DNA from: a virus
Lineage: Duplodnaviria > Caudoviricetes
Reading direction: 5' to 3' (one strand)
DNA length: 64,000 nt
IMG/VR virus record: IMGVR_UViG_3300044614_002230
Location: 1,705-65,704 of that record
A program made the translations under genes and the position numbers. The first letter of the stretch is position 1; every line of letters starts with the position of its first letter. Of the stretch, positions 28,742 through 57,192 are shown one piece after another. Below the pieces are notes generated by a model, which was not told the origin of the DNA, did not search any database, and saw only the letters and a program-made list of their open reading frames with translations.

Positions 28742-28749
28742 TTTTACCC
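28742..28749 (-). promoter_or_regulatory. Putative late promoter GGGTAAAA
   Basis: Overlaps tyrosinase stop; upstream of baseplate operon. Confidence 0.7.
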
Positions 28750-30179
28750 TACTTGTAGTATTTAACGGTTATCTTTTGAATACTGACAGGAGGAACCTCC
28801 CCAACAACTTTATCGTTTTCAACACCGGTTGTAGGTGTGAATACCAGCTCAAAGCTGTTTTCAGCAAAGCGACTTAAAGGAATCTCAAGAGACACCGGTT
28901 TAGCATTTCCATGGTGATGGTGGCCCTCATGTCCGGAGTCTGGAGTGTTGCCTTCTTTACCGAAGAAATTCAAAAAACCAATAGAAATTCCATTTCCTTT
29001 ATCTCCTATAGCTCTGTAACTTACAATGTAAGAAACGCTCGTGTATCCAGAAACAATTGCATTCTCTATTTGAATAATTCCACCTGTATTTCTAAGACCT
29101 TTAGGTCCAAGAAAAGAAACACTCACTTGTTTTGAAGTTAATGTAACAGGTTTAGAGGTTTGAACTGAAATGGTGTTTTTGTTTTTATCTGCGCTCTCTG
29201 CGGCTAATAGCTTGGGTTCAAAGGGAGAACGTTGACAATCTTCGTAGGATTGGTATTTAACTTTGATAACATTCTGTACCAGATTTTGCATCTGAGGGAT
29301 TGTTAATGAAATTATTGACCCGTCTTCGTCTGTGAACTGGTAGGTTCTACCGTCATCTTCGAAAGTAGGTAACACACCACCTCGGTTTGTCCAACATTCC
29401 CACACGCGGTCTAAGTTGGCGTGATGTAACCAAAAAATTGGGTCCTGAGCAGCCCAGGAAATAGATCCCATCAAAAGACCGTTTTCTTTGCCGAGGGCGT
29501 CGTGTACAACGTTGTGTGGCACGTGTTCTAGGGCCGATTGGAAATCCTCGTATAATGAATTGTCTAATGCTGAAAGAGAGACAATGTCTTCATCTAATGC
29601 ATGACCCCGGTTAATACTTGCTCTTCGGGGGGCATGGAGCGGGTTAATTGACGAATCTTTAGTTAAACGAGTACGAAAAGCTTGAGGGATCTCACGAGCT
29701 TTTGCTGTGCCCGCAGTGTAATTCCAGTAAGGTAGGCTCCAGTTCGGCTGTCCGGACACTTTGCGAGCAACTTTCTCGAAATAATGAAGATACACTCGAT
29801 GCCAAAGTAAGAAAAGCTTATCTGGGTGATATTGATGGCACTGGTTCCAAGCATTCTTAACTTTTACTGTTTCATTGGGCACAAGCGTATAAGGCATCAT
29901 TTCTTTCTTATCTTTTTTCGATACATCTTGCATATTTTTCACATCATCCGTGGTGTAGTAATGATGTATTCCGGAGAACCAACGCCAACTACGAGGGTCT
30001 GTCTCAGGCAAAGCCTTCATTGAGCTAACAACTCTTCGGTATTCGTTAATTTCTTGCTCTGTCAGAGAGTTAAAATCTTTTCTAAATGCTGTATTTTCTC
30101 CGTTTGCGAGCGCAGGAATACTAACACTTACGGATGTTAATAATGCAACGATGATTTGAATAAAAATTTTGCGAGCCAT
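28749..30179 (-). CDS. Secreted tyrosinase / polyphenol oxidase (type-3 copper)
   Basis: Signal peptide ending IPALA; CuA GIH...CH...FLLWHRVYL; LPYWNY; CuB PHNVVH...DPIFWLHHANLDRVW. Confidence 0.93.
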   Translation of the reverse strand: MARKIFIQIIVALLTSVSVSIPALANGENTAFRKDFNSLTEQEINEYRRVVSSMKALPETDPRSWRWFSGIHHYYTTDDVKNMQDVSKKDKKEMMPYTLVPNETVKVKNAWNQCHQYHPDKLFLLWHRVYLHYFEKVARKVSGQPNWSLPYWNYTAGTAKAREIPQAFRTRLTKDSSINPLHAPRRASINRGHALDEDIVSLSALDNSLYEDFQSALEHVPHNVVHDALGKENGLLMGSISWAAQDPIFWLHHANLDRVWECWTNRGGVLPTFEDDGRTYQFTDEDGSIISLTIPQMQNLVQNVIKVKYQSYEDCQRSPFEPKLLAAESADKNKNTISVQTSKPVTLTSKQVSVSFLGPKGLRNTGGIIQIENAIVSGYTSVSYIVSYRAIGDKGNGISIGFLNFFGKEGNTPDSGHEGHHHHGNAKPVSLEIPLSRFAENSFELVFTPTTGVENDKVVGEVPPVSIQKITVKYYK

Positions 30180-43734: not shown

Positions 43735-43928
43735 TACAAAGCCTCAGACATCAGCATAGCCTCTTCTGACTCGAAGTAAGCGGCATTGTAGGCACAATTT
43801 ACCGAGGAAGGAATTTCCCTTCCTTTTTTATCGTAAGGAGTTACCAGGTAATATTCGTATCCGCTTTTGGGTCCTACAATTACCGAGAGAGAAGCGTAAA
43901 CAACTCGAGATTTTTTAAACTTTTTCAT
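43734..43928 (-). CDS. Hypothetical protein
   Basis: ATGA overlap with polymerase stop. Confidence 0.6.
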   Translation of the reverse strand: MKKFKKSRVVYASLSVIVGPKSGYEYYLVTPYDKKGREIPSSVNCAYNAAYFESEEAMLMSEAL

Positions 43929-46681
43929 TTAATTAGTCCTTTTTGAATAGCAGTGTAACGAGTTTTGAGTTTGTCGATGAACCCTTGTTCCGACAATTCT
44001 TGCATAGAATACTCAACTCCCGGGGGTTCCTTAGCTCCTTGGGGATTTGACAGAGTGACTGTCTTTTCTTTGGGAGACTTGCGAAGGCGGTTGTCAATCG
44101 CTACGCTCGAGAAAAATGCTCGAGACAAAGGCAATTCGGGAATACCCACCGACGAATGAAACAGACTCCAAGTATACATGTGGGCAATTTGAAATAAAAC
44201 TGCAAATTGTTCTGCATATTTATCAGGGGTCATGAACCACACTTCGTCATGAATGCTTAGAATAAACCGAGCAGGAACCTTATATTCTTTAACAAGCCAA
44301 TGGACCGTCGTCAAAAAGATTGCAAGAATTTCTGCACCAGAAGATTGAATGGTCCAATTAACCCTTGAGGTTTTAAAGTCGTCTCCCACTGCCGAAGGTC
44401 TCATTGCTGTAGAGATTTTGGTGCCTAAGCAAGGGAGGGTAGGAATTTTAGACCGCATTGCAATCTGTTCCATAAAGTTAAAACAACCCGAGTCAGAACC
44501 ACCTTCGTATAAACCTTGTGTCATACGACCTTTTTTGCCTTCCAGAATCCGGTAAGCGAAATTTTTGACTTCCGTAGGGGATTTCTCAGGGTACTTTCGA
44601 CGAATATAAGTTTGAACCGCACGAACGCCAGCACCGTAAAGCACGGCGAAACCGGCAATTTTAGCAGTGTCACGGTCTACGCCCGCGAGTTTCGCAAGTG
44701 CAGAGTGAGGATCCGTACCCGCTTCCTTAGAGCCTGACAACACATTGTGCCCGAAAGGTGAACAACCAACGTGGCCCCCTTCCCACTTGTCGCTGTAGAT
44801 TGAAGCAATCTGCATTTCCTGGCCATCAAAGTCAGCGCCAACAATTTTCCAGCCATCCGGTGCCTGCACCCGAGATTTAAGCTCAGTGCCAATGCGCCAA
44901 TTTTTGGTGGAACACATGGTAACCATAAGGGATTCAACAGTCCTTCTAGTTACCGTACCGTGACACAGGATCTCTGGAAGAGTAACCAGAGCATCGGCCC
45001 CATGGGGATTATGAGCAGGAAGGAAAATTCTGTCCATAACCCGCTTGCGAACCGAGGTCCAGTAAGAAACGGCATTCGCGATCTCCAGGGCTCTTTTGGC
45101 TTCTGGCAGGTCACTAGACAACCTACCAACAGCCATGTCGTCAACGAAGTCTTTACTTAATACACCGCCGACGTTATCTCCCGCACCTTTTGGATGAGGT
45201 ATTTTTTGAAGTTTTCCCTCTTCATCGTGGTAGCACCAACCGTCGTTTTCTGTAAAGATCATTGGGCTACCTTCATACTTGAGCTTAAGCATCAAGTGTG
45301 AGAGGATCGATTTCACACCAATGTGGGTTTCCGGGTCTTTAATAAAAGGACGAACCCAGTTAGGAACTCCGGCATATTTACCTTTTTGAGTCTTCACTTC
45401 CCAATTCAATTGGCTCAGCCAAGGGTCCCGAACCTCAAATTCTTCTTTGTTTTCGGATTCCTTCCATGTTTCATAATTTTGCCAAACAAGGTCCCTACAG
45501 AGCTGGGTCATTTCCTCGTTGTGCTCTTGAAACACCCTCTCTACATTTTGAATCCACTCCTCCCAATCAGGGACCAGAGGAATAACAGAACCGTTGAGGT
45601 GATAATGACCGCACAAGGCAACCATTGAAGGTGTAGAGTTTAGGTACTTGGGCCATATTGCCTGGAAAAGTTCGGCGGTGTAAAAAGCGTCCTTCAAGGC
45701 GTAATCGAGAGCCTGTGTTAGCATCTGCCGAATTTGACTTAGATGTGTCGCTTTTACGAAAATATCGCGAACCTTTTTATCGCTGTCTCCCAGCTCGGTA
45801 ACATTTTCTCCGAAGTATTTTCTAACGGCTGCTACATGAAAGTTATAACATTGAACCAGAGAGTTCGTCGCACCTTTATCGAGCCACTTCGGGGCGTACC
45901 GGAGTTTTCTCTTTTCTTCTTCAGTTAGATCCTCAGGGTCTTTACCTGCCAGCACATATAGCCAGCGTTGACCCCCGGCAAGACCGGAAACACCGATGTG
46001 TGCCGACAATGTGTCAAAATAGAAATTCTCTGGCTCGGTGTTTTCAAGGGAATACCCTTCCCTGGCCCGAACACGGTCGTACGAAATATTATGACCAGCA
46101 ATAAACCGTTGTCGCCCAACTGGAATCAACCCGTGTTGTTCCCACTTGTCTTCTGGAATCGTTGGGTCAATTAGCTCTGCAGCCAGCCAAACGTAAGCTG
46201 CCTTTGGTGACAAAGCGGTTCCGATAATTGGGAAAGCACCGCCATGCACATAAGTTTCGGTGTCAAATGTAAATACTTCTTCCTCGGGGTAAGGAACTTT
46301 TTTAGTTTTCCATTTCCCTTTTACTTTCTCATACCGAATCCAACCGCTCTCCAGGATAAACTCTTCTGGTGGCGGTAGTTCTGGAAGCTCACAACTAGCA
46401 AACTTGTCGCCAAGGTCTTTATACCGACCTACTTGATTTGCAGCGATAGTTTCAAAATGCTCTTTTAGTGAATTACCCTTCAAATCTGGCAGCGGAAGTT
46501 CTCCGTTGTACAGATTATCAGGGTAATCAACAGGCGTACTAATCCCGAAATTTTTCAGAAGACCTTTCGCCTTTTGAATTTCTGTTCGAGACATACCCTT
46601 GAGTTTTTCCTGCCCGAAGATCTTGTCGTGCAGATCGTCTGAAATAACTGGGTATCCTAGTTCTGTGATTCTGAGTGCCAT
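43925..46681 (-). CDS. Family A DNA polymerase, mitochondrial Pol-gamma-like
   Basis: Exo FDTET, GHNISYDRVR, YALKD; gamma-type KIPHPKG..NVG.VLSKDF, SYW.S.R.R, GTVTRR, RIGTELK..VQAP.GW; motifs A GADFDGQE, B RDTAK...LYGAG, C SIHDEV. Confidence 0.95.
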   Translation of the reverse strand: MALRITELGYPVISDDLHDKIFGQEKLKGMSRTEIQKAKGLLKNFGISTPVDYPDNLYNGELPLPDLKGNSLKEHFETIAANQVGRYKDLGDKFASCELPELPPPEEFILESGWIRYEKVKGKWKTKKVPYPEEEVFTFDTETYVHGGAFPIIGTALSPKAAYVWLAAELIDPTIPEDKWEQHGLIPVGRQRFIAGHNISYDRVRAREGYSLENTEPENFYFDTLSAHIGVSGLAGGQRWLYVLAGKDPEDLTEEEKRKLRYAPKWLDKGATNSLVQCYNFHVAAVRKYFGENVTELGDSDKKVRDIFVKATHLSQIRQMLTQALDYALKDAFYTAELFQAIWPKYLNSTPSMVALCGHYHLNGSVIPLVPDWEEWIQNVERVFQEHNEEMTQLCRDLVWQNYETWKESENKEEFEVRDPWLSQLNWEVKTQKGKYAGVPNWVRPFIKDPETHIGVKSILSHLMLKLKYEGSPMIFTENDGWCYHDEEGKLQKIPHPKGAGDNVGGVLSKDFVDDMAVGRLSSDLPEAKRALEIANAVSYWTSVRKRVMDRIFLPAHNPHGADALVTLPEILCHGTVTRRTVESLMVTMCSTKNWRIGTELKSRVQAPDGWKIVGADFDGQEMQIASIYSDKWEGGHVGCSPFGHNVLSGSKEAGTDPHSALAKLAGVDRDTAKIAGFAVLYGAGVRAVQTYIRRKYPEKSPTEVKNFAYRILEGKKGRMTQGLYEGGSDSGCFNFMEQIAMRSKIPTLPCLGTKISTAMRPSAVGDDFKTSRVNWTIQSSGAEILAIFLTTVHWLVKEYKVPARFILSIHDEVWFMTPDKYAEQFAVLFQIAHMYTWSLFHSSVGIPELPLSRAFFSSVAIDNRLRKSPKEKTVTLSNPQGAKEPPGVEYSMQELSEQGFIDKLKTRYTAIQKGLIK

Positions 46682-50773: not shown

Positions 50774-51265
50774 TTATTCGATTGTTTCTACTTTATGTGG
50801 GTACTTTTTGCACAAGTTTTCGATACGGGTTCTCATCCCTTTCATCCAACTTTCGTTTTGAGTGTTGTTCCTTGCTGCTCGCCTACGCTCCAGCTCTTCT
50901 TCACTGACTTGCAAACAAATCAAGTTCATGCCAATGTTTTCTTGAAACATAGCATCCATGTTAGGACCATTGCTCAAACGTTCCCCTTCACCGTAAATTA
51001 TCCAGTCCGGAAATTCTTCCGTGGCTCCGAGTAACCATTCACGAAACTTGGGTCCCACACCTTTACTCCAGGTGTCGGTCCCTGCAAACGTGCCTTCATC
51101 ATAACGTCCAAGGACGATTGTCTTCTGTTTAAGGAATTTATGGTAAGTTACCAACCCTTCTTTAATGAATTCATCTGTTTCGTTCTCTCGAAGGTTATTT
51201 AAAATACCGCGCATCAACGTGGTTTTACCGGTTCCAGGTTGACCAATGTAATAAAAGATTTTCAT
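50774..51265 (-). CDS. P-loop nucleotide kinase of DNA-hypermodification type (putative 5-hydroxymethylpyrimidine DNA kinase)
   Basis: GQPGTGKTT, GTD, EGERL, RRAAR; ATGA-coupled to amino acid:DNA transferase. Confidence 0.8.
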   Translation of the reverse strand: MKIFYYIGQPGTGKTTLMRGILNNLRENETDEFIKEGLVTYHKFLKQKTIVLGRYDEGTFAGTDTWSKGVGPKFREWLLGATEEFPDWIIYGEGERLSNGPNMDAMFQENIGMNLICLQVSEEELERRRAARNNTQNESWMKGMRTRIENLCKKYPHKVETIE

Positions 51266-52335
51266 TGTTTAGGGTTGTAATGGTAATGCAGGGTGCCGTG
51301 GTTTAAAAACAATTCCATTTTAGCTTTATCTTCACGGGCGTAACGTGGAGCCAATACATCGCCAACAACTTCTCCACGAGCTTGCCAAATTACGTTCCAA
51401 TCGATCCCGTGCCAGTTATCATTTTCAGCTTTCATAACTTCTTCTGATTGCCGGTCAAGGTAATAGCCAACGTAACGGCCTCGACTGGTTCTCCAGAGCT
51501 TTTTGTAAGCACAGAGTGCGGTTTCCATTGAGAAGTTGTCGAATTGGGAAGCAAGCAATGGCCAACGCTTGCGAGCTTCCAGCAAAAGTTCAGCACCAGC
51601 TATTTCTAAGTAAGCGTACTCTTTGCTGGTCAATTTTTGGTTGACCCATTCGTCTTTCCCGAGCGCATAACACAACCCGTTTCTGTGAGACTTGGATCCT
51701 GAGTAGTCACTTAGTAGTAATGTTGGGCAATCAATATTGATGCCACACGTGTGTTTTAATGTTTGTAAGTAAAAAAATGCGGTGTAACGTCCGAACTTAT
51801 ACCATTCTCCTTTTATAATTGCCCAGAGTCGTTCAAAGTTAACTTCCGGCTCCTCCGTACAAATTCGGTCAAACACAGCTTTTTGTGAAGACCCGTGAAC
51901 CCAATCACAATACGATTGGTACATGGCTGGCAGGTGCCCTTTTGACCACTTCGTGTCAGTTTGATAGCGCAATCGTGTATAATTCTCGTTGTTCCATTGG
52001 GTAAATCTATCTACACTCGCCAACTCCTCATCGGGGAATTCGTTCTTATAAACGAATGCGGTGGGTAAATTGTATGTGTGATACAACCATGCAAACCACA
52101 AACGTTCTTCCACCGAGTATTCATACCGGTCGTTCAGGTATTGGATCAACCAGAGTGCAGGATCGCAATCCCCGGAAGCCACGCTTGCTGCGTAAAATTG
52201 CAAAAAACCCTCAGATCTTTGACTTAATTCACGGTAATCATGACCAACGTTCTTTTTGTTTGTACTGGCAACATTAACCGCAGCGCCGCCGCACACATTA
52301 TCTTGGAGTCTCATAGTAGCAGTTATAAAGTTCAA
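51262..52335 (-). CDS. Amino acid:DNA transferase (aGPT-Pplase2-like, HhH glycosylase fold); start uncertain
   Basis: DYR, GDCDP, ERLWFAW, YQTDTKW.KG, FGRYTAFFYL, SKSHRNGL, METALCAYKK, RYVGYYLDR. Confidence 0.85.
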   Translation of the reverse strand: MNFITATMRLQDNVCGGAAVNVASTNKKNVGHDYRELSQRSEGFLQFYAASVASGDCDPALWLIQYLNDRYEYSVEERLWFAWLYHTYNLPTAFVYKNEFPDEELASVDRFTQWNNENYTRLRYQTDTKWSKGHLPAMYQSYCDWVHGSSQKAVFDRICTEEPEVNFERLWAIIKGEWYKFGRYTAFFYLQTLKHTCGINIDCPTLLLSDYSGSKSHRNGLCYALGKDEWVNQKLTSKEYAYLEIAGAELLLEARKRWPLLASQFDNFSMETALCAYKKLWRTSRGRYVGYYLDRQSEEVMKAENDNWHGIDWNVIWQARGEVVGDVLAPRYAREDKAKMELFLNHGTLHYHYNPKQ

Positions 52336-52650
52336 TCATGTGGCACCGGGAAAGTCGCTCCGTTAGGTAAAAAGGTCCCCAGCAAAATGCGTATGGCCCT
52401 GGAAGAATTGGGATACAATCCCAACAATCACCGCTCTCAAGGTGTCTCCGAAGAATTGCTTGCCTGGGCTGATAAAATCGTGATTATGGGCAACGCCCAC
52501 GAGAAATTTATCACAGAGCATTACCCTCAGTACCTTACTAAAATAACCAATTGGAACGTTAAAGATCCTCACTTTGCTACTGGGAATGAGCTGCATCGTA
52601 AGGTGGCCAAAGAAATTGAAGTCAAAGTTAATCAGTTATTTGTTGAATGA
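52240..52650 (+). CDS. Low-molecular-weight protein-tyrosine-phosphatase family protein, antisense to its neighbours
   Basis: NVLFVCTGNINRS P-loop, SCGT, HRSQ, WADKIVIM, VKDPH. Confidence 0.92.
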   Translation: MTNVLFVCTGNINRSAAAHIILESHSSSYKVQSCGTGKVAPLGKKVPSKMRMALEELGYNPNNHRSQGVSEELLAWADKIVIMGNAHEKFITEHYPQYLTKITNWNVKDPHFATGNELHRKVAKEIEVKVNQLFVE

Positions 52651-53566
52651 CCTTCACAGTTTCCTCGGCAGTGCAGTTATCGATATCTAAATGTTTACGC
52701 AGATCGTTGATACGGGTTTCGGCAACTTTCCGAGAATTTTTATCAAAATTAGTGTACTGATACCCGCACTCCATTGCAAAATCAAACGGGGCAAACTCAG
52801 GGAAATCATAAGAGTATGCCGAAAGCAATTCTGAAACAAGGGCATCATTCAAAGCCCCCTCGATAAACTTCGCTACCCACACAAAACAGGAGGCTAACTT
52901 TTTAACATCAAGAGTGTTCGTAAAATGGCGAAATTCAACGGTGTCCGTTTCTTGCAACTGTAACAAGTTGATGCCAGCTCTTGTTGTTAGTCCATATGCT
53001 CGTTTGTTGTCAGTCTGCAATTTTGAGTGAGCATCAAAGAACTCGCGCACCGTTGTTGCTTGCATCGCCTCAGCAACTCTCGCAGCAGGCACCTTATATT
53101 GGTGAGAAACTTTACGTCGCTTGTAGCGTTTGAGAGCACCCTTATAGGCTTCTTCGCTGAAGTAATCTTCCCTCAATGGTACCGGAATTGGCTCAATTGC
53201 TGCATAAATTTGACCTTGATTCGCATCAATATACGCAAGCAATTTCTTGAGAGATTTTAAATCCTCCGACAACCCTGGTACACAAATATGTAAATGCAAG
53301 TTTGTTCGGTGGTTGATAGCAGCTTCCGGATGTCGGGCAATCAACAACTCAAACATTTCAAGTTGTTCAGCAAAGCTATCGGTAGGCGCAGAGTTAATCT
53401 CTCCTCCGCGTTGGTACGCTCGCCCTTTAGGGTCATTTGCGATCCCGGTTGAACTTACGATTGAGTAATCTTTTTCGTTCCAAGTTAGCCCTTGAGGTAA
53501 ATCACTCCTCCAAATATCACCAAACTCGTATTCTGCCCCGAACGTTACGTTCTTGAGGTCAATCAT
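52628..53566 (-). CDS. Putative amidoligase (Amidoligase_2 / COOH-NH2 ligase fold)
   Basis: TFGAEYEF, GGEINSAP, NHRTNLHLHI, GINL, TVEFRHF. Confidence 0.82.
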   Translation of the reverse strand: MIDLKNVTFGAEYEFGDIWRSDLPQGLTWNEKDYSIVSSTGIANDPKGRAYQRGGEINSAPTDSFAEQLEMFELLIARHPEAAINHRTNLHLHICVPGLSEDLKSLKKLLAYIDANQGQIYAAIEPIPVPLREDYFSEEAYKGALKRYKRRKVSHQYKVPAARVAEAMQATTVREFFDAHSKLQTDNKRAYGLTTRAGINLLQLQETDTVEFRHFTNTLDVKKLASCFVWVAKFIEGALNDALVSELLSAYSYDFPEFAPFDFAMECGYQYTNFDKNSRKVAETRINDLRKHLDIDNCTAEETVKVIQQITD

Positions 53567-54222
53567 GGAATCAGTTCCTCAACGTTTGTTATTTTAGTGC
53601 CACCTTTGGGAGTGTAAATCCACCCCGGTTCGCATCGCCGTGGTCGTTTCAATCCTGCACGCAGAGCAATGTCTGATGTTGAGCAGATAAATACACCGTT
53701 GGGTACACGGTTGAAGTACAAAGGGCGTTTCCCGTTGCGATAAAACCGCAACCCATCGGAGCCCAACTCGGCAACTGCCATACTTGCTTCAGGGAACTCT
53801 TTCAGCGGTTCTTTCCCCGCATGTCTTGCTTGGTATAGTAACTCGGAATCGTTACTTGTTGCTAGTTCGTAACCGTGCTCGCCCCAATAAACAGGTGGCC
53901 TTTGATCGACAACACCGTTGTGGGCAAGCGCCAAGTCTTCAAAAATATGCAAAGGTTGATTGAATTTAAGGTCGCTCGTCGAATACCTGCAATGGCCAAT
54001 CAATTGCAAAGTGTAATCACCAGGCTGCACCTCTGCGAAATGACTTTGCACGAAAGTTTCCGCAGGGACAGGCGCAACTTGAGTGAAGATTCGCTTATTG
54101 CGAACCAGAGAGTAACCACTTGCGTGTTTTCCTCTAATCTGGGACTCGACAAACAATCGTTTCAGGGTCTGAATTTGTTCTTCAGAAGGCGAGTCAAGGT
54201 AACAACCAACTATAGCACACAT
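53563..54222 (-). CDS. Class II (Ntn) glutamine amidotransferase
   Basis: MCAIVG (N-terminal Cys), RGKHASG, GHCRYST, NQPL, HNGVV, NDSE, RNGKRPL. Confidence 0.92.
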   Translation of the reverse strand: MCAIVGCYLDSPSEEQIQTLKRLFVESQIRGKHASGYSLVRNKRIFTQVAPVPAETFVQSHFAEVQPGDYTLQLIGHCRYSTSDLKFNQPLHIFEDLALAHNGVVDQRPPVYWGEHGYELATSNDSELLYQARHAGKEPLKEFPEASMAVAELGSDGLRFYRNGKRPLYFNRVPNGVFICSTSDIALRAGLKRPRRCEPGWIYTPKGGTKITNVEELIP

Positions 54223-55653
54223 TCATTTCTCCGTATACCAGTAATTAGTGCGGGAAGCGTTAGGGCAATGTTTTGTTCTATACTCGTCCCACTCGTCGCT
54301 GACCCACATAGCAGGAAACACTCCACTGAATTTGCCTCCATCGTTTTTCTGATAGCGGTCTGCGTAGTTGGCTTGAGAGTATGCAATGAACTGTTTACGG
54401 CAACATTCTGACCTGTAATCATCTAGTTTAGCCATGCCATCCCGGGCGTAATAAACTTGAATGATACTTTCGGCGTCCCCGGTTTTGTCTATCATTTCAG
54501 TTTGCCCGTGAACGCGATTGCAGTTGTCACCAACAAAGAAATCTCCGTGGCGAATGTCAAACGCTAAGCCAAACTCAGCCATTACAAAGTATTGTCCGTC
54601 GTATTTCTCGCCAGGGTATGCTTCATTAGTAATGTTTGTAAGAACTGCTACTCCTCTAGGGTTATTTTTACCATCTAGGTGCCAGAAGGTAGAGAAGTTA
54701 TAGTTGATTGTAATTGTGGAGAAAGTTTTAGTACCTAGTAGCGTGTATAGATCTTCTTGGCAAGGCTCCATAAGATCATGGATATAATTCCACTCTTCTG
54801 GCATTGTGTCTCGGTACATATCCGAGACTTGCTGATACAAAGATTTATGAGCCTCAAAATCTTTTCGCCTTTTTTCCGTAGTGGCTGACAAGCGACCGAA
54901 AGGATTTCGGGCAGACCTGTCCATAAAACCGAGGATATTGCTATATACTTTATTCGCTCGAGTCTGAATGCTGACAAAGTTCTTGTAAGAATCTTTAGCG
55001 AACTGAACTTGATCTTCTTCTTTAGCCCAATCAATCAACCAATTATCAAACCACTCCTGACGCAGTTTATCACGTTCAGCCAAGGCGGCATCTTTCTCTG
55101 CTTGAGGTGTGGCTTTCTTGCGAAGAAGAGACTCCAACGCCAGGATCTTCTCTCCATCTACGTAAGGGGAGTTCAGCAGTTTCTTGACATACAAGGAGAA
55201 CCGCGAAGCTCCGGTCTGGCTAGCGACAATCTCTTTCGCTTCCTCAATTGTTTTGACTTTACCTTTCGTGGCAGAGCGAAAGAATGCTACTTGGCCGTTG
55301 GTAAGTCTGGCTGAAGTATCGGTAACGAGCTCTTTACCTCCTACCAAGCCACGTTGATCGGACAGTAGATCTTTACTGACCCAACGCCAATAGTTGAAAC
55401 TGTCGGAATCAGGAGTGATTTTAGTAATCTCTGGCAACGCATTGCGCAGAAACACAATCGCTCGTTTACCTTTTAGATACACAATCGTGTTATCTCGAAT
55501 TATACGGTTGCTGTCATAATCGGTTTCATTGGGGCGATCTCCGATCCGTTCTTTATCGAAAGGGATCAGTTCATCTATTTCAATCACTTCACACTCATAA
55601 GTGCCAGTGCAAGTTTTGAGGGTTTCAGTGTTGGTTTTAACTTTGGCAGTCAT
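54223..55653 (-). CDS. TET/JBP-family Fe(II) dioxygenase (5-methylpyrimidine oxidase-like)
   Basis: VYSNILGFMDR, FSTITINYNFSTFWHLDGKN (HxD), RHGDFFVGDN..VHGQTE (distal His), VYYAR. Confidence 0.88.
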   Translation of the reverse strand: MTAKVKTNTETLKTCTGTYECEVIEIDELIPFDKERIGDRPNETDYDSNRIIRDNTIVYLKGKRAIVFLRNALPEITKITPDSDSFNYWRWVSKDLLSDQRGLVGGKELVTDTSARLTNGQVAFFRSATKGKVKTIEEAKEIVASQTGASRFSLYVKKLLNSPYVDGEKILALESLLRKKATPQAEKDAALAERDKLRQEWFDNWLIDWAKEEDQVQFAKDSYKNFVSIQTRANKVYSNILGFMDRSARNPFGRLSATTEKRRKDFEAHKSLYQQVSDMYRDTMPEEWNYIHDLMEPCQEDLYTLLGTKTFSTITINYNFSTFWHLDGKNNPRGVAVLTNITNEAYPGEKYDGQYFVMAEFGLAFDIRHGDFFVGDNCNRVHGQTEMIDKTGDAESIIQVYYARDGMAKLDDYRSECCRKQFIAYSQANYADRYQKNDGGKFSGVFPAMWVSDEWDEYRTKHCPNASRTNYWYTEK

Positions 55654-55704: not shown

Positions 55705-56202
55705 TCACTCAAAGAAACCGCGCATAACATGATATTTTTGCCCTTGGTTATAGTGGTCAGCTTCCAGGTTGTATGTGAAGTTGAAACTTTTTCCTGTGAT
55801 GTGGTTCAATGGCACAAAAAAATGATCTTCGTTATCAATGAATTGATTATATACTGTAATCCAAACAATTTCCGCCGTTTTGGCTTGCAACTCTTTAGTT
55901 CCGAGTTTCATTAGCCAATAATCACCTCTTTGATTACGGTTATTCACTAGTCTTTTGTATTTTGCCTCTACAGAGCGATCTGTCTCTTCACAGAATAGAT
56001 CGTGCCCGTTTGTGGAATCTCTGGGAATCGAGAGATATTTACTTAATGCCAATTCGTGCAAAACACACAGCTCTATGCCGCCAGACTCAGCGAGTTCCTC
56101 GATTGCTGTGTATTGCTCGTCAGTGAAATGAGGATAAACGTAACGAACGTACTTTCTGACAAGGGGTTTGTGGTAATTTGCCACACGTTGAGTTGTTGCC
56201 AT
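55705..56202 (-). CDS. Putative PD-(D/E)XK endonuclease
   Basis: HELAL...GHDL......SVEAKYK catalytic-like spacing. Confidence 0.55.
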   Translation of the reverse strand: MATTQRVANYHKPLVRKYVRYVYPHFTDEQYTAIEELAESGGIELCVLHELALSKYLSIPRDSTNGHDLFCEETDRSVEAKYKRLVNNRNQRGDYWLMKLGTKELQAKTAEIVWITVYNQFIDNEDHFFVPLNHITGKSFNFTYNLEADHYNQGQKYHVMRGFFE

Positions 56203-56541: not shown

Positions 56542-57192
56542 TCAGGCAACCAGGCCCTCAACCGAAGGGTAAACCTCGCGAGTAAGTTGTTCAATCCTAG
56601 AGCGCACAAGCGACCTATACTCACCAACTTCATCCTCACCTAGTACAGCAAACGGTGCAGTCTCAGCGCTGTACCAGCTGTCCCAAGCATCATTCCAGCT
56701 ATCAGCAAATTCCGCCTTGAGTTCATCACGGAAGACGACCCAATCAAAGTTGCTAACGCGACCCAAGTCCGCAGCCAGAGCCAGCAATTCTTTCTCTGGA
56801 GCCACAAATTTACTACGGCGGCTCGTATCAACTTGGTCTAGCACCGGTTGATAAAGTTCCAGAGCTCGAAGCTCCTCCTCCTTAATAATCAACCAGGCAG
56901 GCACTTCACCAGGAGCCAACTCGCTATATTTACGTAGCAATTCCGCTTCAGCAGCCCGCCAGCGGTAGTGCAGTTTGGTTTGAACAGGTTGTTTGCTCGC
57001 TTTGGTACCCCTAGCCTTTGCAGCAACCTTTTCGGCTGCCTTTGCAGCAAGAATAATCTGCTTTTGATCAGCAGTCAGGTTGGCGTAGCCAAAATATTCG
57101 CGAGCCTGGAGAGCTTGCTGCAACTCAGCAATGTTCTCGGAGGACCAACCGGCCAGGTTTTGCAGTTTTGAGAAGTTCATGTCGTTTTTCAT
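56542..57192 (-). CDS. Hypothetical protein
   Basis: Repeated promoter cassette upstream. Confidence 0.7.
   Translation of the reverse strand: MKNDMNFSKLQNLAGWSSENIAELQQALQAREYFGYANLTADQKQIILAAKAAEKVAAKARGTKASKQPVQTKLHYRWRAAEAELLRKYSELAPGEVPAWLIIKEEELRALELYQPVLDQVDTSRRSKFVAPEKELLALAADLGRVSNFDWVVFRDELKAEFADSWNDAWDSWYSAETAPFAVLGEDEVGEYRSLVRSRIEQLTREVYPSVEGLVA

What the first reader, a model, noticed from the sequence alone, without database searches (positions are those of the whole stretch)
50774..55653. Post-replicative DNA hypermodification pathway: TET/JBP + GATase-II + amidoligase + amino acid:DNA transferase + kinase
Seen: five tightly packed co-oriented genes. Established: P-loop kinase plus aGPT-Pplase2 attach amino acids or amines to 5-hydroxymethyluracil in DNA, usually fed by a dUMP hydroxymethylase; phage TET homologues oxidise 5-methylpyrimidines in DNA; gene neighbourhoods of this general type have been predicted computationally. 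Inference: here the hydroxymethyl group is made on DNA, activated by phosphorylation and substituted, and the GATase/amidoligase pair supplies ammonia or forms an amide (e.g. aminomethyl, then gamma-glutamylated or amidated base). I know of no chemically defined product for this combination, so a new base is plausible.
Basis: partly seen in the sequence, partly recalled or inferred. Interest (0 to 1): 0.85.

Follow-up and report, generated by a model that had tools for sequence, protein, structure and literature searches.

The report
Phage thymine hypermodification gene cassette
An uncultured phage carries six tightly packed genes that most likely oxidise thymine in its finished DNA and build a nitrogen-bearing, acylated side chain on it; this kind of gene set is already published, but the base it makes is still unknown.

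Summary
A sixth gene belongs to the set, an antisense low-molecular-weight phosphatase (LMWPc) at 52240-52650.

This neighbourhood type is in print (Lee 2021, O'Toole 2026), with no product defined. This scan has met it before on other DNA: 22 notes in at least 18 genomes, mostly a GNAT variant.

Comparison of 205 related loci (136 clusters) shows separable modules.
- GATase travels with AADT and kinase: 49 of 49 clusters with enough flank.
- GATase occurs without amidoligase and is absent where an FAD lyase is present: 0 of 9.
- GATase-linked AADTs have lost both glycine-binding residues of PaMx11 gp46.
- A predicted GATase-AADT complex scores 0.91, against a best control of 0.00.
- The amidoligase is followed by LMWPc in 48 of 77 clusters and is fused to it once.

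Best reading: T, then 5hmU, then 5-phosphomethyl-U, then glutamine-derived 5-aminomethyl-U, then an N-acyl product. All of this is in silico. The oxygenase also lacks the canonical 2-oxoglutarate arginine.

The parts
54223..55653 (-). TET/JBP-family 5-methylpyrimidine dioxygenase (5mYOX), 476 aa. Predicted thymine to 5-hydroxymethyluracil on DNA.
   Evidence: Pfam PF12851, E 5.9e-12. AF2 model has pLDDT 89.6. VIA gives Z 19.7 to TET2 and 18.5 to NgTET1 over model residues 3-468, so residues about 70-230 are an insert in the fold and not a separate N-terminal domain. H325, D327 and H382 are invariant in 23 sequences. S396 sits where TET2 has R1896. A promoter-like TTTACA-16-TAAAAT lies at 55700-55673 (such sites are not enriched over shuffles).
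53563..54222 (-). Stand-alone class II (Ntn) glutamine amidotransferase, 219 aa. Predicted nitrogen donor for the transferase.
   Evidence: Pfam GATase_6, E 2.9e-7. M1-C2, R79, N102-G103 and D125 are invariant in 13 sequences. Predicted complex with AADT: ipSAE 0.91 against a best control of 0.00. The interface includes residue 1 and residues 103-109.
52628..53566 (-). GS/GCL-like carboxylate-amine ligase (Amidoligase_2), 312 aa. Predicted ATP-dependent N-acylation of the aminomethyl base.
   Evidence: Pfam E 0.0023, below the cut-off. Relatives at 45-48% identity carry PF12224. AF2 pLDDT is 94.2. Foldseek top hits are all GshF, glutamine synthetase, YbdK, GCL and PafA, with weak E-values of 5.5e-4 to 2e-2. 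E12, E14, H91, H93, E211 and R213 are invariant in 22 sequences.
52240..52650 (+). Low-molecular-weight phosphatase (LMWPc), 136 aa, antisense inside the cassette. It is coupled to the amidoligase; its role is unresolved.
   Evidence: Pfam PF01451, E 1.6e-17. Nearest solved relatives are YwlE-type phosphatases, E 1e-10 to 1e-7. C8 and R14 are kept in 50 of 52 sequences (2 gapped), D109-P110 in 52 of 52. It is the next gene after the amidoligase in 48 of 77 clusters and is fused to it in L113.
51262..52335 (-). Amino-acid:DNA transferase family (AADT, formerly aGPT-Pplase2), 357 aa. Predicted to displace the phosphate of 5-phosphomethyl-U with glutamine-derived nitrogen.
   Evidence: Pfam PF18724, E 4.9e-20. 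E271-T272-x-x-C275 matches the metal and nucleophile motif of PaMx11 gp46. Y184 and F188 replace its glycine-binding Trp and Lys. The start may be TTG 52335 or ATG 52314.
50774..51265 (-). P-loop nucleobase kinase (5-hmdU DNA kinase type), 163 aa.
   Evidence: Pfam Ploopntkinase3, E 3.5e-11. Walker A GQPGTGKT is seen. A profile grown from it hits the kinase-position gene of phage ZC01 at 1.6e-36. It co-occurs with AADT in 49 of 49 GATase clusters with enough flank.

Best explanation
This is a six-gene, post-replicative thymine hypermodification cassette built from three modules.

1. Priming. The TET/JBP oxygenase hydroxylates thymine in DNA to 5-hydroxymethyluracil. The P-loop kinase makes 5-phosphomethyl-U. 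Both steps are inferred from family membership and published homologues.
2. Amination. The AADT, docked to the stand-alone Ntn glutaminase, replaces the phosphate with nitrogen from the amide of glutamine and gives 5-aminomethyl-U. This is inferred from co-occurrence, loss of the glycine-binding residues and a predicted complex. It does the job that glycine transfer plus an FAD lyase do in phage PaMx11.
3. Tailoring. The GS-like amidoligase uses ATP to join a carboxylic acid to that amine. By analogy with the whole GS/GCL/YbdK/PafA superfamily, the acid is most simply the gamma-carboxyl of glutamate.

The LMW phosphatase works with the amidoligase. It may remove a phosphate carried by the acyl donor or product, or it may clear unreacted 5-phosphomethyl-U. 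That step is a guess.

The product would be an N-acyl-5-aminomethyluracil that has not been described chemically. Its likely use is protection of phage DNA from host nucleases, as shown for related modifications.
For: Families and catalytic residues are intact in all six proteins.

Thymine as substrate, by elimination:
- PF00145 and PF00303 are absent from this record and from 22 of 22 related records.
- The 3 records that are at least 90% complete each carry Tet_JBP.

GATase goes with AADT:
- Of 49 clusters with GATase and at least 5 kb downstream, 49 have AADT, 49 have kinase and 45 have amidoligase. The other 4 have a GNAT instead.
- Architectures 5mYOX-GATase-GNAT-AADT-kinase occur in 8 clusters, and GATase-GNAT-AADT-kinase in 3.
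- All 9 clusters with an FAD oxidoreductase have amidoligase and none has GATase or 5mYOX.

Published precedent. In PaMx11, AADT plus an FAD lyase give 5-aminomethyl-dU, which a GNAT then acetylates (Lee 2021, section read). Phage ZC01 has that colinear cluster. The environmental 'class B' loci are the same cluster with amidoligase-LMWPc in the GNAT slot.

AADT residues:
- The catalytic E-T-x-x-C is kept in 73 of 74 GATase-linked AADTs and in 8 of 8 class B.
- The glycine-binding Trp and Lys are kept in 8 of 8 class B.
- They are Tyr and Phe in 71 of 74 GATase-linked AADTs, the window's copy included.

Predicted AADT-GATase complex:
- ipSAE is 0.91 (runs 0.92, 0.91, 0.91); the best of 3 controls is 0.00.
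- In calibration the mark was reached by 58 of 80 solved complexes and 2 of 110 mismatched pairs. These counts hold only roughly, because my own alignments were used.
- The runs share at least 93% of contacts, and partner pLDDT is at least 91.
- The interface holds GATase residue 1 and the oxyanion-loop region 103-109, plus invariant AADT residues R70, E72, E76 and E99-D102.

Amidoligase and LMWPc:
- LMWPc is the next gene in 48 of 77 clusters, 42 on the same strand and 6 opposite.
- The two are one 559-aa fusion in L113.
- LMWPc-linked amidoligases form one deep branch. It holds both GATase-type and FAD-type cassettes and is separate from the GNAT-linked ones (SH-aLRT 100; quick tree only).
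Against: Nothing here is chemistry. No nucleoside, activity or expression was measured.

- The oxygenase subfamily has Ser or Asn where TET2 R1896 and NgTET1 R289 hold the C5-carboxylate of 2-oxoglutarate. Most other phage 5mYOXs, including those of most other such cassettes, keep the Arg. Co-substrate and product of step 1 may therefore differ.
- No ParB-like activator was found: PF02195 in 0 of 4 records. Published stand-alone phage T-dioxygenases are about 290-300 aa, not 476.
- The window's amidoligase is below Pfam's cut-off, and its fold matches are weak.
- In the window, GATase and amidoligase are translationally coupled neighbours, which is what the rival reading expects.
- Locus counts come from seed-biased samples (the best 80 of each scan) of related cassettes. 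Co-occurrence partly reflects shared descent.
- The gp46 residue mapping goes through a homologue (ZC01) and motif matching, not through gp46 itself.
- The acyl donor and the role of the phosphatase are guesses.
Confidence: 0.55

Rival explanations
1. GATase and amidoligase form a two-subunit amidotransferase of the asparagine-synthetase type. The AADT first appends an amino acid through its alpha-amine. The amidoligase then activates that amino acid's free carboxylate with ATP, and GATase-derived ammonia turns it into an amide. The product would be an 'amidated' base such as glycinamide-T.
For: The two genes are adjacent and overlap by 4 nt in the window. They are adjacent, or separated only by a glycosyltransferase, in most class A loci. 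Ntn glutaminases normally feed ATP-dependent synthetases (established knowledge, recalled).
Against: GATase occurs with AADT and kinase but without amidoligase: 4 of 49 clusters with full flank, and 8+3+2 clusters among the architectures. The amidoligase occurs without GATase in 9 of 9 FAD-type clusters. GATase-linked AADTs lack the Trp and Lys that hold glycine in gp46 (71 of 74). The predicted complex places the GATase active-site face on the AADT. The GATase+amidoligase pair itself was not folded.
Confidence: 0.15
2. The AADT transfers whole glutamine through its amide nitrogen, or a gamma-glutamyl amine. The Ntn hydrolase then cleaves the gamma-glutamyl bond on DNA, which unmasks 5-aminomethyl-U without free ammonia. 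The rest follows the best explanation.
For: The GATase keeps the residues that, in class II amidotransferases, hold the alpha-amino and alpha-carboxyl groups of a gamma-glutamyl substrate: R79 and D125 (the roles are recalled from GlmS/PurF). This gives the same end product and fits the same co-occurrence data.
Against: The predicted tight heterodimer, with the glutaminase nucleophile buried at the interface, suits channelling better than action on DNA. The AADT pocket has become more hydrophobic (Tyr/Phe for Trp/Lys), which does not suit binding a zwitterionic amino acid.
Confidence: 0.12
3. The oxygenase is not a 2OG-dependent thymine hydroxylase. Lacking the C5-carboxylate Arg, it either uses another co-substrate and makes another adduct, as algal CMD1 does with ascorbate, or it carries out iterative oxidation to 5-carboxyuracil. 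In the second case the amidoligase would amidate that carboxyl.
For: S396 sits at the TET2 R1896 position, with Ser or Asn across the subfamily. CMD1 is the top Foldseek hit, only marginally ahead (E 1.3e-8). The CMD1 paper ties loss of a working Arg at this site to loss of 2OG use (passages read). O'Toole 2026 reports iterative oxidation by phage enzymes (abstract).
Against: Orthologues of the same subfamily sit, in the same phage backbone, next to TET-associated glycosyltransferases or next to AADT plus kinase alone. All of these need a hydroxyl. Kinase and AADT are present in 49 of 49 clusters. One subfamily member keeps Arg at the site (P0031).
Confidence: 0.1
4. The phosphatase is an unrelated 'moron' that happens to sit in the operon, for example a host-takeover tyrosine phosphatase. 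The pathway would then have five genes.
For: It is on the opposite strand in the window and its closest relatives. LMW phosphatases are common stand-alone signalling enzymes. GNAT-type cassettes work without it.
Against: It follows the amidoligase in 48 of 77 clusters, on the same strand in 42. This holds in both TET/GATase-type and ThyA/FAD-type cassettes, and it is fused to the amidoligase in L113.
Confidence: 0.05

Closest known systems
Metavirome TET_JBP/5mYOX-initiated thymidine hypermodification clusters (Lee et al. 2021 NAR, PMC8989533, Fig. 2 sequences 22-25; O'Toole et al. 2026 PNAS, PMC13229309, clade C1 neighbourhoods)
   Same: The gene families match: TET_JBP instead of a dUMP hydroxymethylase, a P-loop kinase, AADT, and 'amidoligase' and 'glutaminotransferase' genes of unknown role. 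There is no neighbouring C5-methyltransferase (passages and sections read).
   Different: Those papers' main texts assign no function to GATase or amidoligase and do not mention an LMW phosphatase (supplements are closed). O'Toole links this machinery to ParB-dependent enzymes, and no ParB_N was found here. This oxygenase is 476 aa with a large insert and lacks the canonical 2OG Arg.
Pseudomonas phage PaMx11 pathway to 5-acetylaminomethyl-dU (gp46 glycine:DNA transferase, gp47 FAD lyase, gp48 GNAT; Lee 2021 section 20; Wen et al. 2024 NAR, PMC11472151)
   Same: It shares the kinase, an AADT with the E-T-x-x-C motif, a 5-aminomethyl-dU intermediate (predicted here) and then N-acylation.
   Different: 5hmU comes from DNA oxidation, not from a dUMP hydroxymethylase. 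GATase takes the place of the FAD lyase. The glycine-binding Trp and Lys are replaced by Tyr and Phe. Amidoligase plus phosphatase take the place of the acetyltransferase.
Class II (Ntn) glutamine amidotransferases such as GlmS, PurF and AsnB
   Same: It has the N-terminal Cys nucleophile and the conserved Arg, Asn-Gly and Asp motifs. Its predicted active-site face is buried against a partner enzyme.
   Different: It stands alone at 219 aa. Its predicted acceptor enzyme acts on a base in DNA, and no such amidotransferase is described in the papers I searched. The residue roles are recalled, not tested.
GS / gamma-glutamylcysteine ligase / YbdK / PafA carboxylate-amine ligases
   Same: These are the fold matches of the amidoligase model. 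The Pfam family is Amidoligase_2.
   Different: Similarity is weak (TM at most 0.43). The substrate would be an amine on DNA. It is tightly linked to an LMW phosphatase, which I do not know from that superfamily (recalled).
Campylobacter jejuni capsule amidation (ATP-dependent amidoligase using phosphorylated amines, followed by a phosphatase)
   Same: The logic of an amide ligase followed by a phosphatase is one way to explain the amidoligase-LMWPc coupling. I saw only the abstracts in the listing, which mention amidation with ethanolamine or serinol. The phosphorylated substrates and the phosphatase step are recalled.
   Different: The enzyme families differ and the target is a polysaccharide. 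This is an analogy only.

Membership tests
Post-replicative thymidine hypermodification (5-hmdU DNA kinase + AADT; Lee 2018/2021) | P-loop nucleobase kinase | tested here: met
   PF18751, E 3.5e-11. Walker A is present. The family profile hits the kinase-slot gene of the PaMx11-like phage ZC01 at 1.6e-36.
Post-replicative thymidine hypermodification (5-hmdU DNA kinase + AADT; Lee 2018/2021) | AADT with metal ligands and catalytic Cys (gp46 E243, T244, C247) | tested here: met
   PF18724, E 4.9e-20. E271, T272 and C275 align with the E-T-x-x-C of the ZC01 homologue.
Post-replicative thymidine hypermodification (5-hmdU DNA kinase + AADT; Lee 2018/2021) | A source of 5hmU in DNA (dUMP hydroxymethylase, or TET_JBP in the metavirome variants) | tested here: met
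   PF00303 is absent. Tet_JBP is present. The record is only about 30% complete.
Post-replicative thymidine hypermodification (5-hmdU DNA kinase + AADT; Lee 2018/2021) | A modified thymidine in virion DNA | not testable with these tools
   Needs LC-MS of DNA.
PaMx11-type glycine route to 5-aminomethyl-dU | Glycine-binding Trp146 and Lys150 in the AADT | tested here: not met
   The window has Y184 and F188. GATase-linked AADTs have Tyr in 71 of 74 and Phe in 71 of 74. FAD-linked AADTs keep Trp and Lys in 8 of 8 (mapped through ZC01).
PaMx11-type glycine route to 5-aminomethyl-dU | FAD-dependent glycinylthymine oxidoreductase and GNAT acetyltransferase | tested here: not met
   The scanned window ORFs gave no such Pfam hits. 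No ORF in L001-L003, the window's closest relatives, took the FAD-oxidoreductase or GNAT profile label in the architecture lists.
Phage 5mYOX thymine dioxygenases (O'Toole 2026) | TET/JBP fold with the HxD...H iron triad | tested here: met
   PF12851. Z 19.7 to TET2 and 18.5 to NgTET1. H325, D327 and H382 are invariant.
Phage 5mYOX thymine dioxygenases (O'Toole 2026) | Arg that binds the C5-carboxylate of 2OG (TET2 R1896, NgTET1 R289) | tested here: not met
   S396 sits at that position. Ser or Asn is found in the subfamily members compared. Arg is kept in 18 other phage 5mYOX ORFs in the same alignment. The profile alignment to TET2 is weak in E-value but matches the LVFY strand.
Phage 5mYOX thymine dioxygenases (O'Toole 2026) | No C5-cytosine methyltransferase in the genome or neighbourhood | tested here: met
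   0 of 22 records, 3 of them at least 90% complete.
Phage 5mYOX thymine dioxygenases, ParB-dependent subclass | Neighbouring ParB-like activator | tested here: inconclusive
   PF02195 was found in 0 of 4 records. It was found next to a short 5mYOX in L024. The paper also used structure searches to find ParBs, which I did not repeat on the upstream ORFs.
Phage 5mYOX thymine dioxygenases | Placement in clade C1 or C2 with the tested enzymes | not testable with these tools
   The reference sequences are in supplements, which are closed.
Class II (Ntn) glutamine amidotransferase | N-terminal Cys with Arg, Asn-Gly and Asp glutamine-site motifs | tested here: met
   GATase_6 scores 31 bits against a cut-off of 27. 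C2, R79, N102-G103 and D125 are invariant in 13 sequences. The motif roles are recalled.
Class II (Ntn) glutamine amidotransferase | Physical coupling to an acceptor (synthase) enzyme | tested here: inconclusive
   The predicted complex with AADT scores 0.91 against a best control of 0.00. This is a model, not a measurement, and the amidoligase was not tried as partner.
Amidoligase_2 / GS-like carboxylate-amine ligase | Family profile match | tested here: inconclusive
   The window protein scores 18.3 bits against a cut-off of 22. The L113 relative scores 23.6. Relatives at 45-48% identity carry PF12224 in precomputed annotation.
Amidoligase_2 / GS-like carboxylate-amine ligase | GS/GCL-type fold | tested here: inconclusive
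   All top Foldseek hits belong to this superfamily, but E is 5.5e-4 to 2e-2 and TM is at most 0.43.
LMW phosphotyrosine phosphatase / ArsC fold | C-x5-R-S P-loop and D-P general acid | tested here: met
   PF01451 scores 64.5 bits against a cut-off of 23.2. C8 and R14 are kept in 50 of 52 sequences and D109-P110 in 52 of 52.
Thioredoxin-coupled arsenate reductase (ArsC) | Additional redox Cys pair | tested here: not met
   The window protein has only C8 and C34. Position 34 is Ala in 35 of 52 relatives. The requirement itself is recalled.

The most novel reading that the evidence does not exclude
The stand-alone Ntn glutaminase and a glycine-blind AADT variant together form a glutamine-dependent amidotransferase that acts on a base in double-stranded DNA and makes 5-aminomethyluracil in one step from 5-phosphomethyl-U. 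A co-inherited amidoligase-phosphatase pair then builds an N-acyl side chain (gamma-glutamyl, or derived from a phosphorylated acid). The result would be a DNA base not yet described, started by a TET-family enzyme that has given up the canonical 2-oxoglutarate arginine.
Probability: 0.35. Interest if true: 0.8.

Novelty: new variant of a known kind. Interest (0 to 1): 0.55.

Why it matters
Hypermodified thymines protect phage DNA from restriction enzymes and other nucleases, and their enzymes are used to build and read modified DNA. The cassette type seen here is common: more than 551 GATase relatives were found in one viral collection. Its product is still unknown.

The comparisons turn an unexplained gene list into three testable steps with named residues and a predicted protein pair:
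- glutamine-dependent amination on DNA by a GATase-AADT heterodimer;
- ATP-dependent acylation by the amidoligase;
- a phosphatase-dependent step.

If confirmed, this would add an amidotransferase and a carboxylate-amine ligase to the enzymes known to work on DNA bases. It would also show that phages reach the same intermediate, 5-aminomethyl-U, by two unrelated routes.

Tried and rejected
Searches and checks that led nowhere, or that weakened an idea:
- Megablast of the region against 50,697 phage records gave no match.
- The amidoligase protein searched against the same collection matched only 2 records. Phage Simon has an amidoligase-LMWPc-kinase set. In Vibrio phage 2.275.O the homologue lies in a 7-deazaguanine cluster. 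No cultured phage with this exact cassette was found.
- PDB sequence searches found nothing for the GATase, the amidoligase alone or as a profile or the AADT. A solved AADT does exist (PaMx11 gp46), so a blank there does not mean 'no structure'.
- I first read the oxygenase as 'N-terminal extra domain plus TET domain', possibly a fused ParB. I rejected this because the structural alignments run from residue 3-5 to 424-468. The extra 150 residues or so are an insert.
- ParB_N was not found in 4 records. I did not fold the upstream ORFs 55705-56202 and 56542-57192, which have no Pfam hit, so a divergent activator is not excluded.
- Direct BLASTP of the window's proteins against ZC01's cluster gave no hit at 1e-2. 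Only profiles link them.
- Promoter-like sites are not enriched in the region: 4 found against 9.6 expected. I make no claim about transcription units.
I therefore could not measure which basic residue might replace the missing Arg, or whether a tunnel joins the two active sites.
- The careful tree search did not finish, so the tree cited is the quick one.
- I could not read Iyer et al. 2013, which is not held. What I say of it is recalled.
- Supplements of Lee 2021 and O'Toole 2026 are closed. They may list this very contig, LMW phosphatases or clade assignments.
- Only one complex job is allowed. GATase+amidoligase and amidoligase+LMWPc were not folded.

Full report
**What is there**

The window is an IMG/VR virus record of 65.7 kb, estimated about 30% complete. 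Nearly all of its genes are on the minus strand.

At 50774-55653 there are five minus-strand ORFs with these Pfam matches:
- Tet_JBP, 476 aa, E 5.9e-12;
- GATase_6, 219 aa, E 2.9e-7;
- Amidoligase_2, 312 aa, E 0.0023, below the curated cut-off;
- ADDT, 357 aa, E 4.9e-20;
- Ploopntkinase3, 163 aa, E 3.5e-11.

The genes abut or overlap by 4 nt. Downstream lie a topoisomerase II A subunit and a family A polymerase with a Pol-gamma-type exonuclease domain. Further on come Mu-like head genes.

**A sixth gene**

The apparent gap between amidoligase and AADT is a plus-strand gene, 52240-52650. It encodes a low-molecular-weight phosphatase (PF01451, E 1.6e-17) and is nearest to YwlE-type enzymes in the PDB. 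Its C-x5-R-S loop and D-P motif are intact.

It overlaps both neighbours. Three related contigs, with 75% identical oxygenases, keep all six genes in the same order and orientation at 59-75% identity.

**What is in print**

Lee et al. 2021 (PMC8989533; abstract, sections 15 and 20 and passages read) showed that 5-hmdU DNA kinases and AADTs install amino acids on 5hmU in DNA. They noted metavirome contigs in which a TET_JBP gene replaces the dUMP hydroxymethylase. [quoted passage not shown]

O'Toole et al. 2026 (PMC13229309; abstract and sections 5, 6, 11, 12 and 13 read) showed that phage TET/JBP enzymes oxidise thymine after replication. They state that the ParB-dependent subclass is 'consistently linked' with GATases, P-loop kinases and AADTs.

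Neither main text mentions a phosphatase in these clusters. Neither assigns the GATase or the amidoligase a role. My searches found no paper that defines the product. Supplements were closed.

This scan has met such cassettes before on other DNA: 22 notes in at least 18 genomes, mostly a GNAT-containing variant in T4-like phages. One follow-up already proposed that the GATase feeds ammonia to the transferase (e1-5822702). That is a lead, not evidence, and I tested it below.

**The oxygenase**

There are 90 full-length relatives at 37-90% identity. H325, D327 and H382 are invariant in an alignment of 23 sequences.

The AF2 model (pLDDT 89.6) matches TET2 and NgTET1:
- TET2: Z 19.7, rmsd 3.9, 273 residues aligned;
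- NgTET1: Z 18.5, rmsd 4.4, 244 of 266 residues aligned.

These alignments span model residues 3-468. The extra length is therefore a large insert in the fold, at the place of the 'variable insertion' that O'Toole et al. tie to ParB dependence. No ParB_N gene was found on this record or on three relatives.

Two points weaken a simple reading.
- The published stand-alone enzymes are about 290-300 aa.
- This subfamily has Ser or Asn at the TET2 R1896 position. Eighteen other phage 5mYOX ORFs in the same alignment keep Arg there, including those of other GATase cassettes and a ParB-linked one. R404 aligns with TET2 H1904 and CMD1 R418, which contact the base.

Several observations argue against a dead or odd enzyme.
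- The subfamily is conserved.
- In one and the same phage backbone (topoisomerase and polymerase 60-78% identical), orthologues stand before three different downstream sets: a TET-associated glycosyltransferase set, AADT plus kinase alone, or the present cassette. All of these need a hydroxymethyl group.

Thymine is the substrate by elimination. C5-methyltransferase and thymidylate-synthase-like genes are absent from 22 of 22 records. Three of those are at least 90% complete, and each of the three has a Tet_JBP gene.

**Comparative anatomy**

I labelled ORFs with profiles grown from the window's proteins and from Pfam-checked neighbours. I then merged loci that share at least 2 kb at 95% identity or more. 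This reduced 205 loci to 136 clusters. These samples are biased by the seeds and are not a census.

The main architectures, with cluster counts, are:

| Architecture | Clusters |
|---|---|
| 5mYOX-GATase-amidoligase-LMWPc-AADT-kinase | 11 |
| The same with a GT1 glycosyltransferase after the GATase | 11 |
| The same with a TAGT glycosyltransferase after the GATase | 2 |
| The same with LMWPc on the opposite strand | 2 |
| 5mYOX-GATase-amidoligase-GNAT-AADT-kinase | 18 |
| 5mYOX-GATase-GNAT-AADT-kinase | 8 |
| GATase-GNAT-AADT-kinase | 3 |
| 'Class B': AADT-FAD oxidoreductase-amidoligase-LMWPc-kinase-HMUDK_hel-thymidylate-synthase-like | 6 |

Truncated forms of each also occur.

Counts with flank requirements:
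- GATase with at least 5 kb downstream, n=49: AADT 49, kinase 49, amidoligase 45, LMWPc 30, GNAT 19. Four clusters have a GNAT and no amidoligase.
- Amidoligase with at least 2.5 kb upstream, n=63: GATase 50, FAD oxidoreductase 6, radical SAM 1, none 6.
- FAD-oxidoreductase clusters, n=9: GATase 0, 5mYOX 0, amidoligase 9, LMWPc 8.
- Amidoligase with at least 700 nt downstream, n=77: next gene LMWPc 48 (6 on the opposite strand), GNAT 26, other 3.

One of the 'other' cases is L113. There, amidoligase and LMWPc are a single 559-aa ORF with both Pfam domains.

**Reading the modules**

Class B is colinear with the PaMx11-type cluster. I verified this in phage ZC01, which reads AADT-FAD enzyme-acetyltransferase-kinase-HMUDK_hel-thymidylate synthase. 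In class B, amidoligase-LMWPc stand in the acetyltransferase slot.

In PaMx11 the biochemistry is known. The AADT adds glycine, the FAD enzyme cleaves it to leave 5-aminomethyl-dU, and the GNAT acetylates that amine. The amidoligase therefore most likely also acts on the amine of 5-aminomethyl-U.

In the TET-type cassettes there is no FAD enzyme. There is always a GATase, and in some the only other tailoring gene is a GNAT. The simplest account is that GATase plus AADT make the same amine directly.

**Two further tests of that idea**

First, the AADT residues. The gp46 structure paper (PMC11472151; abstract and sections 14 and 22 read) names E243 and T244 as metal ligands, C247 as the nucleophile, and W146 and K150 as holding glycine. 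I mapped these through the ZC01 homologue. It shares gp46's D24, Y47, Y51 and E92 numbering and has W-x-x-x-K at 149-153 and E-T-x-x-C at 236-240.
- E-T-x-x-C is kept in the window (E271, T272, C275), in 73 of 74 GATase-linked AADTs and in 8 of 8 class B AADTs.
- The Trp and Lys are kept in 8 of 8 class B AADTs.
- They are Tyr (71 of 74) and Phe (71 of 74) in GATase-linked AADTs. The window has Y184 and F188.

Second, a predicted AADT-GATase complex, using 13-row alignments in matched order.
- ipSAE was 0.92, 0.91 and 0.91; the best of three controls was 0.00.
- The runs agree in at least 93% of contacts, and partner pLDDT is at least 91.
- In calibration the mark was reached by 58 of 80 solved complexes and 2 of 110 mismatched pairs. 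This holds only roughly here, because my own alignments were used.
- The interface includes the glutaminase N-terminus and the 103-109 loop. On the AADT side it includes the invariant residues R70, E72, E76 and E99-D102.

This supports binding in the model's sense only. I found no solved AADT-GATase complex that it could be copying, but I did not search for one specifically. I could not fold GATase with the amidoligase for comparison.

**The amidoligase and the phosphatase**

The amidoligase family is large: 367 relatives at E of 0.001 or better. Invariant acidic, His and Arg positions are seen. Its model (pLDDT 94.2) finds only GS, GCL, YbdK, GshF and PafA-type ligases at the top, though weakly.

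All characterised members of that superfamily that I recall activate a glutamate gamma-carboxyl. Gamma-glutamylation of the aminomethyl group is therefore the default guess.

A quick tree (SH-aLRT only, careful search unfinished) splits GNAT-linked from LMWPc-linked amidoligases with support 100. It nests the class B amidoligases (support 99) among the GATase-type LMWPc-linked ones. The amidoligase-LMWPc pair thus moves as a unit between cassettes with different routes to the amine.

What the phosphatase does is unexplained. It is not needed by kinase and AADT as such, because GNAT-type cassettes lack it. I suggest a phosphorylated acyl donor or product. A weaker alternative is clean-up of 5-phosphomethyl-U.

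**Verdict**

It is refined to three modules, with the GATase assigned to the transferase and a sixth gene added.

The kind is published and common, so this is not a discovery of a new system. The LMWPc variant, the glycine-blind AADT with its predicted glutaminase partner, and an oxygenase without the canonical 2OG arginine are new, testable details. The product remains chemically undefined.

Confidence in the overall scheme is about 0.55. Confidence in the specific acyl group is much lower.

Noticed in passing
window 28749-30179 (-): A 476-aa tyrosinase (PF00264, E 1.6e-28) sits among the phage structural genes, between capsid and baseplate genes.
   Followed up: no
window 43925-46681 (-): The family A DNA polymerase has a mitochondrial Pol-gamma-type exonuclease domain (PF18136, E 1.7e-61).
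   Followed up: no
L004-L018 compared with window 50774-55653: One phage backbone (topoisomerase IIA and polymerase 60-78% identical) carries orthologous TET/JBP genes at the same site, followed by different cassettes. These are a TAGT glycosyltransferase + HAD + NTP-transferase + APH set; AADT + inositol-1-phosphate-synthase-like + two unknowns + kinase; AADT + kinase alone; or the present set. It looks like a swappable hypermodification slot.
   Followed up: partly
L051 3319-6242; L069 953-4638 and 7114-8939: Some relatives carry two or three tandem TET/JBP paralogues, an R2K-type ATP-grasp gene and two amidoligase copies.
   Followed up: no
L131 (Vibrio phage 2.275.O) 7866-12126: An amidoligase homologue (27% identity) lies beside 7-deazaguanine genes: a QueF-like reductase, a queuosine biosynthesis protein, an Ntn aminohydrolase and GTP cyclohydrolase I. 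The same ligase family may therefore also tailor modified guanines.
   Followed up: no
window 50774-51265; L209 6141-6710: The nucleobase kinase matches PHROG 800, which is labelled 'terminase small subunit'. The ZC01 orthologue is annotated that way in RefSeq. This is a likely propagated misannotation.
   Followed up: partly
window 55700-55673 and 53618-53591 (-): Two identical promoter-like boxes, TTTACA-16 nt-TAAAAT, end 19 and 24 nt before the start codons of the oxygenase and the amidoligase. The scan as a whole found fewer sites than shuffles do, so this may be chance.
   Followed up: no
L002 14442-14822 and 16363-16842; L009 15624-16172; L016 6727-7479: HNH-type endonuclease ORFs are inserted within or next to the cassettes of several relatives. 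In L002 one lies between AADT and kinase.
   Followed up: no
L001 6753-7355: In the closest relatives, the gene just upstream of the oxygenase is a 200-aa protein with an HEMVH metallopeptidase-like motif. It replaces the window's unrelated 165-aa ORF. It was not scanned against Pfam.
   Followed up: no
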